Notes: generated by a model from the sequence alone, not told the origin. Counted from the first letter of the stretch, positions 27,170 to 34,323 are shown. The stretch is 34,323 nucleotides of DNA from a virus (IMGVR_UViG_3300022747_000014), one strand, 5' to 3'. Program-made: numbers and translations.

Positions 27170-27480
27170 AGTGTTAACATAAGTGCTATATGCCCAGGGA
27201 ACGAGGCCCTGAAAGAACACTATAATAAACTTTAAACGGGCGGACAGTTGGATGAAATGCTGGCGGTAACAGCAGAGTACAAATAACTGGTTAGGGCATT
27301 GACCCTAACATATCCTGTAGCAATACAGGGTATTCACAAACGAACTAGACGAATCAATTATATTAATACCATTGGCAGCGACCCACTAGTTTGTTTATGA
27401 ATACCTTAAGGATGACGATGAAACTATCCTTTTGACGGGTAGTTTGTCCGGACCAGTGTGCCGGAAACCTTAAGGGATGT
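27170..27480 (+). ncRNA. candidate structured ncRNA (~310 nt)
   Basis: No ORF; at least eight helices, including a GCAA-capped 9-bp stem (27311-27332) and a 3-way junction closed by CCTTAAGG/CCTTAAGG (27404-27475). Confidence 0.6.
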
Positions 27481-29521: not shown

Positions 29522-29528
29522 AATTTAA

Positions 29529-29577
29529 ATGGTAGAGCATAAATAAAAGTATAAAATATTTTAAAGGGCTCTACCAT
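29529..29577 (+). promoter_or_regulatory. RBS-sequestering hairpin with a late promoter in its loop
   Basis: Perfect 10-bp IR ATGGTAGAGC/GCTCTACCAT ending at the base before the HNH ATG; TAAATA at 29540-29545 inside the loop. Confidence 0.7.
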
Positions 29578-30021
29578 ATGAATTATAAAGGTACAAAAGA
29601 TAAAGTCTTTAACTGCACTCATTGCGGGGCTGAATTCAAGTTTAAAGGTTACAGTAGTAATCACAAATTTTGTAGCTTAGATTGTTCTTATGCCTCTCAG
29701 GCAAATAAAAAAATTGTTTTGAGAGAACAGCGATACCAGGATTGGTTATCGGGTAAGGACTTAGGATTGTCAAATCCAAGAGCTCTTATAAGAGAATTTC
29801 TTATTAAGAGAGATGGATATAAATGTAGTTGTTGTGGTATAGATAGCTGGAATGGAAAAGAAATTACGTTGTGGACTGACCACATAGATGGCAATGCAAC
29901 AAATAATCATCCATCTAACTTTAGACTAATCTGCCCTAACTGTGATAGTCAATCAGAAACGTTTGGCGCAAAGAATTACGGTAACGGCAGGAAGTCTAGA
30001 GGATTACCACAATATGGTTAA
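29578..30021 (+). CDS. free-standing HNH homing endonuclease with N-terminal Zn ribbon
   Basis: CTHCG..F, FCSLDC, KRDGYKCSCCG, DHIDGNATNN...NFRLICPNC; inserted between tRNA-Asn and tRNA-Thr. Confidence 0.88.
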   Translation: MNYKGTKDKVFNCTHCGAEFKFKGYSSNHKFCSLDCSYASQANKKIVLREQRYQDWLSGKDLGLSNPRALIREFLIKRDGYKCSCCGIDSWNGKEITLWTDHIDGNATNNHPSNFRLICPNCDSQSETFGAKNYGNGRKSRGLPQYG

Positions 30022-32696: not shown

Positions 32697-32762
32697 ATGG
32701 GCGCACTAATTGTAGTTTGTGTTATAATGTTTGTACTCTATGTAGTAATAAGGAAGCTATAA
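32697..32762 (+). CDS. 21-aa single-transmembrane micropeptide
   Basis: AAGGAG SD; MGALIVVCVIMFVLYVVIRKL; stop overlaps the phosphatase ATG (TAATG). Confidence 0.55.
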   Translation: MGALIVVCVIMFVLYVVIRKL

Positions 32763-33229
32763 TGTGGATTGAAAATGTAGCAGCAGCAGATGTACCGATG
32801 AAAATGCATCACGCTGCTGGCGAAAACAGCATGCTAATACAGATTATGGATCCTTGTCCAACATGGTGGCCTACACCTGCACATACTTTTAAAGAAGTAC
32901 ATCGATTTGAATTCCTGGATGCCGAGGATAAAGATGGGTTTCCGGCCGAAGCTAAAATTACAGACGAACAAGCAAATGAAATAGTCAAACTACTTCAACA
33001 TGCACTTGACAATAAAATGAATGTTGTAGTACACTGTATGGCAGGCTTATGTCGAAGTGGTGCAGTTGCAGAAGTTGGGGTTATGATGGGATTCGGCGAT
33101 ACAGAACGAACCCGCATACCTAACTTACGTGTAAAGCACAAGATGATGAAAGCCCTTGGATGGACTTACGACGAAAACGAACAACCAGACCCAGAGTCTT
33201 GGAGAACAATTCAATTTAGGAACATGTAA
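32762..33229 (+). CDS. protein-tyrosine/dual-specificity phosphatase family (CX5R)
   Basis: VVVHCMAGLCRSG signature, FLDAED acid loop; start reassigned to ATG 32762. Confidence 0.88.
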   Translation: MWIENVAAADVPMKMHHAAGENSMLIQIMDPCPTWWPTPAHTFKEVHRFEFLDAEDKDGFPAEAKITDEQANEIVKLLQHALDNKMNVVVHCMAGLCRSGAVAEVGVMMGFGDTERTRIPNLRVKHKMMKALGWTYDENEQPDPESWRTIQFRNM

Positions 33230-33303
33230 AATGAAAACTGGTAAACTCTAGTGTCAACGTTAGTCCATTTTGGTCTAGGGTTGGCACGTTAAACAAACAC
33301 CAA

Positions 33304-33379
33304 CCCTCTGTGGCGCAGTTGGTAGCGCAACGGACTCTTAATCCGCTGGTCGTCAGTTCGAATCTGACCGGAGGGACCA
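33304..33379 (+). tRNA. tRNA-Lys (CUU)
   Basis: Loop CTCTTAA, CCA. Confidence 0.92.
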
Positions 33380-33383
33380 ATTT

Positions 33384-33459
33384 GGAAGCATAACTCAATG
33401 GCTAGAGTACCCGGCTTTTAACCGGATAGTTGTGGGTTCGAGTCCCACTGCTTCTACCA
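33384..33459 (+). tRNA. tRNA-Lys (UUU)
   Basis: Loop CTTTTAA, CCA. Confidence 0.92.
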
Positions 33460-33539
33460 TATGTTAACACTCTTGCTCTACGGAGCCCCAGTTATCGTTC
33501 TAGACGTGGGATAACGGAAAAGTGTGTTAACATATGGTA
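33455..33539 (+). ncRNA. 3-way-junction RNA closed by a 16-bp IR that includes the tRNA-Lys ACCA
   Basis: TACCATATGTTAACAC/GTGTTAACATATGGTA; inner GCTC-TACG-GAGC (cUACGg) and GTTATC/GATAAC hairpins. Confidence 0.55.
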
Positions 33540-33540
33540 T

Positions 33541-33847
33541 CTAACCAGAAGGCTCAAACGTGGAGTGCCCGGTCATGACGACCAAATGTATGTTGTTTCT
33601 AGAGACAAACTACAACAACTCTTTGGCAGTTATCAGACTAAACTGCCACCATATGCAAACACATTACTTAAACCGCGGCTGATTTTAAAGTCGGATGATG
33701 GCGAAACTAATAGTGTGTTTACATATGGTAAAAACAGGAGTAATTACCCTGTCCATAATCGGGAGTCATGACCCGATGAACTCGTAGTCTTCTAATTGGT
33801 TAGGAAAGGCCCGTTATGGGGCTTAATGCAGGTTCGAGCCCTGCCTA
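33541..33847 (+). ncRNA. candidate large structured ncRNA with 3' T-arm
   Basis: Closed by CTAACCA-GAAGGCT/AGTCTTC-TGGTTAG; multiple 5-17 bp helices; complementary loops ATGAC/GTCAT; followed by GCAGG-TTCGAGC-CCTGC. Confidence 0.6.
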
Positions 33848-33858
33848 CAATGAGTTTG

Positions 33859-34288
33859 CATATAAAAACATTCTGATTGACTACACTGGAGTACATCGAG
33901 TAACCCTGATGTCGACTATACAGGTAAAAGTTGCCAGGAAGATGGGTCATCATTGTTTCGAGCACAGCAGAATGTTTTTATATGGCATAGTGTAATGAGA
34001 ATGCACGGGATCGCCACATAAGTCTTTGATCGAGCGGTGGAACAAGGTTCAGGTGTGGTAAAAACCCACAAGCCATATAAAAGGTAACTAACTTACGAAA
34101 TAAAAACGTCCGGCCGGCGCCTAAGTAGTTTGGAAGATTGGCGTGCCAAGTAGCAAGGAAAGGGTTTTCGCGACCAACGCCGGGCTAGCAACACAACATT
34201 CGTAGTTGTCTTTTATATGGTAATGCGTGAATTAGTAGCGTAATATCAAGTCGGCATGTGTGTCCACCGTGCATTAACCGACATAAAA
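33859..34288 (+). repeat. array of ~80-150 nt stem-closed modules linked by alternating CATATAAAA/TTTTATATG arms
   Basis: CATATAAAA at 33859 and 34074, TTTTATATG at 33976 and 34211, CATAAAA at 34282; 11-22 bp helices between neighbouring arms; no ORF. Confidence 0.6.
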
Positions 34289-34323
34289 TAAAGCCAGGAC
34301 GAATGCTGTCGTTAACGGTGGAG

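What the first reader, a model, noticed from the sequence alone, without database searches (positions are those of the whole stretch)
33859..34288. Chain-linked ncRNA cassette array with shared alternating arms
Seen: four consecutive modules are each closed by a long helix: 33859-33875/33968-33984 (17 bp perfect), 33976-33986/34072-34082 (11 bp), 34073-34099/34199-34220 (~22 bp with a bulge) and 34211-34227/34271-34288. Each internal arm (TTTTATATG or CATATAAAA) is used by both neighbours, so adjacent modules are mutually exclusive. The module interiors are unrelated, more GC-rich and hairpin-rich. CCATATG/CATATGG also closes stems at 33457/33531 and 33649/33722. Inference: a repeat-delimited array of distinct small RNAs matured by one nuclease (CRISPR-like logic without CRISPR repeats), a co-transcriptional switch cascade, or DNA-level recombination or protein sites for cassette acquisition. 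It probably continues past the window.
Basis: partly seen in the sequence, partly recalled or inferred. Interest (0 to 1): 0.75.

Follow-up and report, generated by a model that had tools for sequence, protein, structure and literature searches.

The report
Stem-closed RNA cassettes among phage tRNAs
The end of this giant lake-phage tRNA gene array holds small folded RNA genes, several of them clamped shut by a long AU-rich stem that starts on the CCA end of the preceding RNA; related phages swap them like cassettes, they match no RNA family I could find, and what they do is unknown.

Summary
The helices are real and far above chance: four stems of 17 bp or more in 869 nt, against 0.02 per shuffle. 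The "four chain-linked modules" are really four different things.

- **A (33856-33987) and C (34072-34221)** are true stem-closed cassettes.
- **B (33982-34076)** is an independent, highly conserved ~95-nt RNA. Its own terminal helix is only about 5 bp. It reaches 11 bp here only because A and C flank it.
- **The fourth "module"** is a broken, non-conserved pairing into a separate conserved ~75-nt element (34249-34323).

All of these recur one by one, in a different order, in related uncultured jumbo-phage contigs, always on the tRNA strand inside the tRNA island.

A has seven distinct members, five helices and clear covariation. The outer arm belongs to a widespread constant stem: its exact 18-mer is in at least 120 viral contigs. 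That stem usually starts on the ACCA of tRNA-Lys(UUU), carries a fixed A·C mismatch, and otherwise departs from Watson-Crick pairing only by G·U in the tRNA sense, so it is selected as RNA.

Best reading: co-transcribed spacer RNAs cut out by tRNA-processing nucleases. The switch-cascade and CRISPR-like readings are not supported.

This scan had already noted the same family on other DNA. I found no paper or Rfam family describing it.

The parts
33384..33459 (+). tRNA-Lys(UUU) with encoded CCA. Its last four bases are the first bases of the next stem.
   Evidence: ARAGORN and Rfam tRNA; stem start at -4 from the tRNA end.
33455..33539 (+). Cassette H1: a hairpin closed by a 20-bp stem that starts on the ACCA of tRNA-Lys(UUU).
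   Evidence: Inverted repeat I2, 95% complementary; present in the MFE fold.
33540..33651 (+). Unit X: a non-tRNA RNA that ends in a 7-bp hairpin followed by ACCA. It behaves like a tRNA in the array grammar.
   Evidence: Read from the sequence. 93-96% identical copies in L118 and L002, each flanked by different cassettes.
33648..33729 (+). Cassette H2: a 19-bp closing stem that starts on the ACCA of unit X and has a C.A mismatch at the family's fixed position.
   Evidence: Inverted repeat I4. A 96% identical copy sits directly after tRNA-Lys(UUU) in L118.
33730..33858 (+). tRNA-like element with a canonical T arm and no CCA.
   Evidence: Cloverleaf-like fold, z = -2.6. The L003 homologue is called tRNA-Ala(AGC) by ARAGORN. 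Homologues in L110, L107 and L124.
33856..33987 (+). Cassette A: a 17-19-bp closing stem (33859-33875/33968-33984) around a four-helix cargo. One cargo loop carries an invariant self-complementary hexamer, GUCGAC.
   Evidence: Seven distinct family members, all between tRNAs on the tRNA strand. 91.7% of cells paired against 32-48% in slid controls, and 9 pairs changed on both sides.
33982..34076 (+). RNA B: an autonomous, highly conserved ~95-nt RNA. Its own terminal helix is about 5 bp (33982-33986/34072-34076). The neighbours' arms extend it to 11 bp in this window only.
   Evidence: 13 homologues with 59 invariant columns. Six of them have no flanking arm at all. Covariation in the terminal hairpin, with a variable insertion in one loop.
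34072..34221 (+). Cassette C: an 18-19-bp closing stem plus 6 further pairs beyond a bulge, starting on the GCCA at the end of B, with a G+C-rich cargo.
   Evidence: 92.7% identical copy in L003/L004. The three differences in the 5' arm all keep pairing through G.U in the + sense.
34222..34248 (+). Non-conserved linker.
   Evidence: Homology with the relatives begins only at about 34249-34250.
34249..34323 (+). Conserved ~75-nt element with 33 consecutive invariant bases and two interlocked helices (pseudoknot-like). It ends exactly at the window end.
   Evidence: Copies 83-100% identical in 13 locus hits, which are fewer distinct contigs; six of them are aligned. The 5' neighbours differ between loci.

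Best explanation
The stretch is the distal part of a polycistronic tRNA/small-RNA operon of an uncultured freshwater jumbo phage. RNAs that end in CCA (tRNAs, unit X, RNA B) alternate with stem-closed cassettes (H1, H2, A, C).

Each cassette is a long RNA helix. Its outer half is AU-rich and nearly constant, and it begins on the (A)CCA of the RNA in front. Where a tRNA follows, the 3' strand usually runs into that tRNA's first bases. The stem encloses a folded cargo that differs from cassette to cassette.

Inferred mechanism:
1. The array is transcribed as one precursor together with the tRNAs.
2. Host tRNA-processing nucleases cut at the two feet of the stem. RNase P cuts on the 3' side where a tRNA follows. 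On the 5' side either an endonuclease cuts right after CCA, as RNase E does at the E. coli proline tRNAs, or RNase III cuts within the helix and trimming follows.
3. This frees the flanking RNAs and releases the cassette as a stable, end-protected small RNA.

Shown: the structures, their selection as RNA in the tRNA sense, their conservation unit by unit, and their reshuffling.
Inferred: co-transcription, the nucleases, and any function of the cargo.

The apparent chain-linking arises because neighbouring units abut or overlap by a few bases and share the same outer arm sequence in opposite orientation.
For: **Setting**
- 25 tRNAs lie on the + strand up to 33459.
- No sigma-70-type promoter lies inside the array, and no + strand terminator.
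- No credible ORF and no Rfam family.
- Fold z = -5.2 on the + strand.

**Units are separately conserved and re-ordered**
-.

**Family A**
- Seven distinct members follow different tRNAs, always in the tRNA orientation.
- The five-helix structure has 9 pairs changed on both sides and G.U pairs in the + sense.

**Cassette C**
- All 3 arm differences from L003 are wobble-compatible in the + sense only.

**The constant stem**
- Of 111 distinct modules with enough upstream sequence, 64 start on the ACCA of tRNA-Lys(UUU) (a re-run counted 65).
- Where a tRNA follows within 100 nt, it begins 2-3 nt inside the 3' arm in 34 of 52 cases.
- The 59 short cargos after Lys(UUU) fall into 49 clusters.
- Outside positions 9 and 17 of the 5' arm, departures from Watson-Crick pairing are 57 G.U, 0 A.C and 7 other.
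- Position 17 is G.U in 86 of 117.
- Position 9 is A.C in 102 of 117.

**Location in complete genomes**
- The arm motif is clustered in the tRNA island of five complete relatives.

**Which tRNAs**
- CCA-anchored stems of 17 bp or more follow 19 of 22 Lys(UUU), 8 of 18 Glu(UUC) and 4 of 20 Gln(UUG) contexts, and almost no others.

**Precedents**
- T4 rnaD and rnaC lie 1 and 6 nt after tRNA-Arg and rnaD respectively.
- RNase E cuts immediately after CCA in front of a hairpin at the E. coli proline tRNAs (PMC5291269).
Against: - There are no expression or RNA-end data, so co-transcription, cleavage sites and stability are all inferred.
- Near-invariance of the stem sequence across many contigs is more than RNase III or RNase P normally require. 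It hints at an unidentified sequence-specific partner, or at homogenisation by recombination.
- No RNase III or CCA-adding enzyme gene was found in five complete relatives, so processing would depend on an unknown host.
- A and C of this window lack the family's A.C mismatch. A follows UGCA rather than CCA.
- C has only one independent homologue, so its cargo structure is untested by covariation.
- The association with particular tRNAs is partly inherited and partly shaped by how the loci were collected.
Confidence: 0.6

Rival explanations
1. The arms act mainly at the DNA level. They would be short shared inverted repeats that promote recombination and so shuffle, gain and lose RNA-gene cassettes, as PeSLs do in T4-type phages or attC sites do in integrons.
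For: - Cassette order and content differ between close relatives, and homology blocks end at the arms.
- The outer arm is almost identical between cassettes with unrelated cargo, as gene conversion would produce.
- PeSL-mediated shuffling is documented (PMC2839356).
- One relative carries a gene with a T7 endonuclease I-type domain inside the array.
Against: - Substitutions in the 5' arm are tolerated only where they give G.U in the tRNA-sense RNA: 57 G.U against 0 A.C outside the two special positions. A DNA hairpin or plain homology would not select for that.
- No tyrosine recombinase or HUH transposase in five complete relatives.
- No promoter or terminator, unlike PeSLs.
- Cassettes never appear inverted relative to the tRNAs.
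- Recombination at the arms may still be a by-product that explains the shuffling.
Confidence: 0.15
2. The hairpins are only insulators and processing spacers. The stem matters and the cargo is neutral filler with no function of its own.
For: - Cargo behind the same stem is hypervariable. There are 65 clusters among 117 modules, and 49 among the 59 short ones that follow tRNA-Lys(UUU).
- Cargo lengths vary widely; whole modules run from about 60 to about 330 nt.
Against: - The cargo of A is conserved at 69-79% identity across otherwise unrelated contigs. It shows covariation in four helices, and invariant loops including a palindromic hexamer.
- The cargo of C is 92.7% conserved, with differences concentrated in a predicted loop.
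Confidence: 0.15
3. The array is a co-transcriptional switch cascade. Because neighbouring helices share an arm, forming one module would prevent the next, giving alternative RNA outputs.
For: Arms overlap by 9-11 nt at the A/B and B/C junctions. The E/B junction in six relatives overlaps in the same way.
Against: - The 11-bp B helix exists only in this window. Only about 5 bp of it are conserved, and B occurs in six loci with no flanking arm.
- The fourth helix is not conserved.
- The MFE fold forms A and C together without conflict.
- Once the units are cut apart, no competition remains.
Confidence: 0.05
4. The helices are chance palindromes in AT-rich non-coding sequence.
For: The 7-10-nt motifs alone are not enriched over the whole window.
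Against: None of 1000 shuffles had four stems of 17 bp or more. Each unit is conserved in other contigs.
Confidence: 0.01

Closest known systems
Phage T4 stable RNAs species 1 and 2 (rnaC, rnaD) in the T4 tRNA cluster
   Same: Small non-tRNA RNAs of 119-139 nt encoded directly after a tRNA on the tRNA strand (gaps of 1 and 6 nt). At least rnaC is strongly structured and has a T arm (z = -4.6). Function unknown (my own knowledge).
   Different: No detectable sequence similarity: the phage-collection search with 33300-34323 returned only tRNA matches. No long AU-rich closing stem anchored on CCA, no constant-stem/variable-cargo design, and two genes rather than a large shuffled repertoire.
RNase III processing stems (leader-trailer helices around 16S/23S rRNA; phage T7 early-mRNA sites)
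   Same: A long helix formed by the sequences flanking an RNA within a polycistronic precursor. The 17-27 bp length is in the RNase III range (established knowledge).
   Different: Here the stem sequence itself is nearly constant across many phages, carries a fixed A.C mismatch, and is registered on a tRNA CCA end. Cleavage is untested, and no phage RNase III gene was found.
One-step 3' maturation of E. coli proline tRNAs by RNase E (Mohanty et al. 2016, PMC5291269)
   Same: A hairpin begins right after the encoded CCA, and an endonuclease cuts immediately downstream of CCA, releasing the whole hairpin.
   Different: In E. coli the hairpin is a Rho-independent terminator ending a monocistronic transcript. 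Here it is an internal spacer with cargo and no U tract, followed by further RNAs.
PeSL cassettes of T4-type phages (Arbiol et al. 2010, PMC2839356; Comeau et al. 2014, PMC4122927)
   Same: Short conserved stem-loop-containing motifs that border variable modules. Relatives differ by module-level shuffling at these motifs.
   Different: PeSLs combine a sigma-70 promoter with a terminator and flank protein ORFs. Here there is no promoter or terminator, the modules are RNAs, and the stem is selected as RNA.
Integron gene cassettes with attC sites; CRISPR arrays
   Same: Arrays of units in which a conserved structured element accompanies variable content.
   Different: No integrase in five complete relatives. 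The arms are inverted pairs around the variable part, not direct repeats between spacers. No cas genes were seen in the window; only ten of its longer ORFs were scanned against Pfam.

Membership tests
Constant-stem cassettes of phage tRNA arrays (operational family, apparently undescribed) | Closing RNA helix of about 17 bp or more that starts on, or within 4 nt of, the CCA end of the preceding RNA | tested here: met
   H1 starts on the ACCA of tRNA-Lys(UUU), H2 on the ACCA of unit X, and C on the GCCA of B. A is the exception: it follows UGCA in this window, but six of the seven A-family members start on the ACCA of the preceding RNA.
Constant-stem cassettes of phage tRNA arrays (operational family, apparently undescribed) | Shared outer arm sequence (ACCAUAUAAAAACA paired with UGUUUCUAUAUGGU) | tested here: met
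   A matches 12 consecutive bases of the 5' consensus and C matches 10. The inner halves are family-specific.
Constant-stem cassettes of phage tRNA arrays (operational family, apparently undescribed) | A.C (or C.A) mismatch at the ninth pair of the stem | tested here: not met
   The mismatch is present in 102 of 117 generic modules, in 6 of 7 A-family members and in H2. A and C of this window have A-U there, and H1 has U-A. They are therefore atypical members on this point.
Constant-stem cassettes of phage tRNA arrays (operational family, apparently undescribed) | Lies inside a phage tRNA island, on the tRNA strand, with cargo that differs between copies | tested here: met
CRISPR array | Direct repeats of one sequence separated by unique spacers of similar length | tested here: not met
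   Direct repeats are only 9-22 nt in two or three copies. The long matches are inverted.
Integron cassette array (attC) | IntI-type tyrosine recombinase in the same genome | tested here: not met
   PF00589 gave no match in five complete relatives, while the control genomes all matched. The window's own genome is not held.
PeSL (promoter-early stem-loop) | Strong sigma-70-type promoter joined to a terminator stem-loop | tested here: not met
   No promoter-like site lies between 33036 and 34323, and no + strand terminator-like site was found.
RNase III processing site | About two helical turns of double-stranded RNA, cleaved by RNase III | not testable with these tools
   The length criterion is roughly met (17-20 bp; 24 with the bulge in C). 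Cleavage cannot be tested here.
T4 rnaC / rnaD | Sequence or structure homology to the T4 RNAs | tested here: not met
   No T4-like match in the phage collection. The folds differ. Only the genomic setting is shared.
Any Rfam 15 family | Covariance-model match | tested here: not met
   Nothing except tRNAs at gathering score. With E up to 10 on 474 nt, the only hit was a 9.8-bit chance match.

The most novel reading that the evidence does not exclude
The constant stem with its fixed A.C mismatch would be the handle of a dedicated RNA cassette system. A sequence-specific factor (host or phage, still unidentified) would recognise the handle, excise the cassette and perhaps load it. The hypervariable cargos would be a fast-evolving arsenal of small RNAs, such as decoys or inhibitors of host defences that attack tRNA-Lys(UUU), Glu(UUC) and Gln(UUG), the three tRNAs the stem prefers to follow. 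The shared arms would let phages exchange cargos by recombination.
Probability: 0.15. Interest if true: 0.85.

Novelty: new variant of a known kind. Interest (0 to 1): 0.6.

Why it matters
tRNA islands of large phages are usually described only as tRNA sets, plus GOLLD or ROOL RNAs. Here much of the "spacer" turns out to be a repertoire of individually conserved, exchangeable structured RNAs. Many of them are packaged behind one constant RNA stem registered on a tRNA CCA end.

If the stem is a processing handle, it defines a new way for phages to punctuate stable-RNA operons and to release small RNAs. If the cargos act on the host, this is a large unexplored pool of phage small RNAs.

The preference for tRNA-Lys(UUU), Glu(UUC) and Gln(UUG) is notable. 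From my own knowledge, these are the tRNAs with modified wobble uridines that anticodon nucleases target. That gives a concrete link to test. It would also give the fifty-year-old puzzle of the T4 species 1 and 2 RNAs a much larger comparative data set.

Tried and rejected
- **Rfam.** Gathering search on the whole window, then E up to 10 on 2 kb and on 474 nt: only tRNAs and chance hits.
- **Cultured phages.** blastn and megablast against 50,697 phage records matched only tRNAs, so no cultured relative carries these units.
- **Own genome.** It is not held, and the nearest record is an 11-kb fragment with no match.
- **Y RNA (YrlA).** The only hit was 19.6 bits, lying over the two tRNA-Lys genes, so it is a chance match.
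- **Strand from mismatch counts.** A naive G.U against A.C count over mixed closing stems gave 21 against 23, which is uninformative because the fixed A.C position dominates. I replaced it with a per-position analysis on 117 modules.
- **Antisense targets.** The interiors of A, B and C found only their own homologues in four complete relatives' genomes. The host is unknown and was not searched.
- **Phage-encoded enzymes** in five complete relatives:
  - RNase III, CCA-adding enzyme, tyrosine recombinase and HUH transposase: all absent, with working controls.
  - T4 Rnl1-type ligase: no match, but no control matched either, so this is uninformative.
- **phiKZ-type late promoter (TATG).** I considered this from memory and dropped it. 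The complementarity extends 17-20 bp beyond the motif, and all units lie on one strand.
- **Literature.** Six full-text searches found no description of this family. The library is incomplete.

Full report
**Setting**

The window is a fragment of an uncultured jumbo phage.
- It encodes a T4-type large terminase, a tail sheath protein, a ClpS homologue and a dual-specificity phosphatase.
- It carries 25 tRNA genes, all on the + strand, between 24892 and 33459.
- No cultured phage resembles it beyond its tRNAs.
- IMG/VR holds many relatives, some of them complete genomes of 222-374 kb.
- The last 870 nt have no credible ORF, no Rfam family, no sigma-70-type promoter inside the array and no + strand terminator.
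- As RNA the region folds far better than shuffles: z = -5.2 on the + strand and -4.5 on the - strand.

**The observation**

Three of the four helices are exactly as described, as are the two extra CCATATG/CATATGG stems.
- C's stem continues for six more pairs beyond a 5-nt bulge.
- The fourth helix is only a 6+2+6 bp interrupted pairing (read).
- Four stems of 17 bp or more in 869 nt compare with a mean of 0.023 in 1000 dinucleotide shuffles, and no shuffle had four.
- The short motifs alone are not enriched over the window. The signal is the paired, clustered arrangement.

**What the units are**

Blast of each segment against about 120 related loci shows that the region is a string of separately conserved units. 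In order they are:
1. tRNA-Lys(CUU)
2. tRNA-Lys(UUU)
3. H1
4. X
5. H2
6. a tRNA-like element
7. A
8. B
9. C
10. a 27-nt linker
11. a conserved 75-nt element

Relatives carry subsets of these units, mixed with other cassettes and in a different order:
- L118: Lys(UUU)-H2-...-P-tail-J-X-...-O-G-K-E-B-Phe
- L002: N-X-I-P-tail-J-K-E-B-Phe
- L003: O-C-(tRNA-like)-tail-E-Phe

Homology blocks stop at the unit borders.

**Cassette A**

Seven distinct members were found. Each lies between tRNAs or tRNA-like RNAs and on their strand. They sit behind different tRNAs: Leu(CAA), Lys(UUU) twice, Tyr and Ala among them.

On a hand-specified five-helix structure, 91.7% of cells pair, against 32-48% when partners are slid. 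Nine pairs change on both sides. One pair is G.U in four members in the + sense.

The closing stem is almost invariant, with an A.C mismatch in six of the seven members. One hairpin loop carries an invariant self-complementary hexamer, GUCGAC. That could support loop-loop dimerisation, which is inference only.

**RNA B**

Thirteen homologues share 59 invariant columns. The terminal hairpin covaries, and one loop accepts a 27-nt insertion.

B's own terminal helix is about 5 bp and covaries (GGC/GCC, GUC/GAC, GGU/GCC; read). In six loci nothing resembling an arm flanks B. In six others cassette E precedes it with the same few-base overlap.

So the perfect 11-bp helix exists only here. A's 3' arm and C's 5' arm are the same family sequence in opposite orientation, and together they extend B's short helix.

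**Cassette C**

The only independent homologue (L003/L004) is 92.7% identical. All three differences in the 5' arm keep pairing through G.U or U.G in the + sense and would be mismatches on the other strand. Most interior differences fall in one predicted loop.

**The fourth module**

Homology with relatives starts at about 34249. From there a 75-nt element runs to the window end, with 33 consecutive invariant bases and two interlocked helices. It has different 5' neighbours in different loci.

**The stem is a widespread constant element**

- *Anchoring on CCA.* Across 498 distinct tRNA 3' contexts in the fetched loci, 44 are followed by a stem of 17 bp or more that starts within 4 nt of the tRNA end. 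At random positions stems of 18 bp or more are ten times rarer.
- *Which tRNAs.* The stems follow 19 of 22 Lys(UUU), 8 of 18 Glu(UUC) and 4 of 20 Gln(UUG) contexts, and almost no other tRNA.
- *What precedes it.* Of 111 distinct modules that end in the 18-mer and have enough upstream sequence, 64 start on the ACCA of a tRNA-Lys(UUU) (a re-run counted 65). These involve 51 distinct tRNA sequences averaging 73% identity. Their 59 short cargos fall into 49 clusters.
- *What follows it.* Where a tRNA follows within 100 nt, it begins 2-3 nt inside the 3' arm in 34 of 52 cases. The two feet of the stem therefore coincide with a tRNA 3' end and a tRNA 5' end.
- *Where in the genome.* In five complete relatives the arm motif occurs 2-10 times per genome, clustered in the tRNA island as facing pairs. 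The reversed-pattern control gives 0-2 per genome.

**RNA or DNA?**

A crude wobble-versus-mismatch count was uninformative. With the 3' arm held fixed, I scored the 5' arm of 117 modules position by position:

| Position in 5' arm | Result |
|---|---|
| 9 | A.C in 102 of 117 |
| 17 | G.U in 86 of 117 |
| All others | 57 G.U, 0 A.C, 7 other |

The three sites where a transition would create A.C never vary (0 of 351 cells). That is the signature of selection on an RNA helix in the tRNA sense. It argues against a DNA hairpin, against plain DNA homology and against an antisense transcript. The count is not corrected for phylogeny.

No tyrosine recombinase or HUH transposase was found in five complete relatives. 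Recombination at the shared arms may still account for the shuffling as a side effect, as with PeSLs (PMC2839356).

**Mechanism**

Shown:
- structured RNAs on the tRNA strand, abutting tRNAs;
- a stem registered on CCA.

Inferred:
- one precursor transcript;
- RNase P cutting at the 3' foot where a tRNA follows;
- at the 5' foot, either an endonucleolytic cut right after CCA, as RNase E makes in front of the hairpin of the E. coli proline tRNAs (PMC5291269), or an RNase III cut within the 17-27-bp helix followed by trimming.

Five complete relatives encode neither RNase III nor a CCA-adding enzyme, so host enzymes would be used. The near-constant stem sequence and the fixed mismatch suggest an additional sequence-specific partner that is not yet identified.

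The cargo of A, and the B RNA, are too well conserved to be filler. Their functions are unknown. The interiors found no antisense target in four complete relatives' genomes.

**Comparison with what is known**

The nearest published analogues in setting are the T4 stable RNAs rnaC and rnaD, which directly follow tRNA-Arg. They share no sequence or stem design with these units. RNase III leader-trailer stems, the RNase E route at the proline tRNAs, PeSLs, integron cassettes and CRISPR arrays each share one aspect and fail on others; see the membership table.

Six full-text searches found no description of this family.

Earlier notes of this same scan describe the same constant-stem cassettes on other DNA. 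I reached the CCA anchoring, the A.C mismatch and the variable cargo from my own analyses before reading those notes. They are leads, not independent evidence.

**Verdict**

The picture of four equivalent chain-linked modules is not.

The region is a mosaic of two stem-closed cassettes (A and C), one autonomous conserved RNA (B) and one conserved pseudoknot-like element. It continues the H1/X/H2 series just upstream. All are members or companions of a widespread, apparently undescribed family of RNA cassettes in jumbo-phage tRNA islands.

Noticed in passing
window 33540-33651: Unit X ends in a 7-bp hairpin followed by ACCA, which resembles an acceptor-stem microhelix. In three genomes a CCA-anchored cassette follows it directly, as if it were a tRNA.
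   Followed up: partly
window 33859-33984 and its homologues (alignment A4): The cargo of cassette A has a hairpin loop with an invariant self-complementary hexamer (GUCGAC) in all seven members. That could allow kissing-loop dimers. A second 9-nt loop is also nearly invariant, above a 3-bp stem that appears to use all four Watson-Crick combinations at one pair (by eye, allowing for alignment gaps).
   Followed up: partly
all fetched loci: CCA-anchored long stems follow tRNA-Lys(UUU) (19 of 22), Glu(UUC) (8 of 18) and Gln(UUG) (4 of 20) far more often than any other tRNA. From my own knowledge these are the three tRNAs with modified wobble uridine that anticodon nucleases target. The count is not corrected for phylogeny.
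   Followed up: partly
window 33270-33295; L001 1630-1655; L002 6520-6545; L003 6520-6545: A conserved motif (GGTTGGCACGTTAAA or close variants) lies just upstream of tRNA-Lys(CUU) in the window and three relatives. It loosely resembles a sigma-54 -24 element and may be a phage promoter for this part of the array.
   Followed up: no
L001 2689-3276: One relative has a 195-aa ORF with a phage endonuclease I (T7 endo I-type) domain (E = 2.8e-10) inserted between RNA B and tRNA-Phe, where other relatives have an 8-9-nt gap. It is probably a free-standing homing endonuclease, like segB in the T4 tRNA cluster.
   Followed up: partly
window 32762-33229: A dual-specificity (Cys) phosphatase gene sits directly upstream of the two tRNA-Lys genes. 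This arrangement is conserved in at least 80 viral contigs.
   Followed up: no
window 27327-27407 and 29522-29584: Two more long hairpins (22 bp and 17 bp) lie inside the tRNA array, with arm sequences different from the CCAUAU type. The first is conserved in L002 (149-234).
   Followed up: no
L089 2333-2714: ARAGORN calls a permuted (two-piece) tmRNA gene inside the tRNA island of a contig that also carries cassette A.
   Followed up: no
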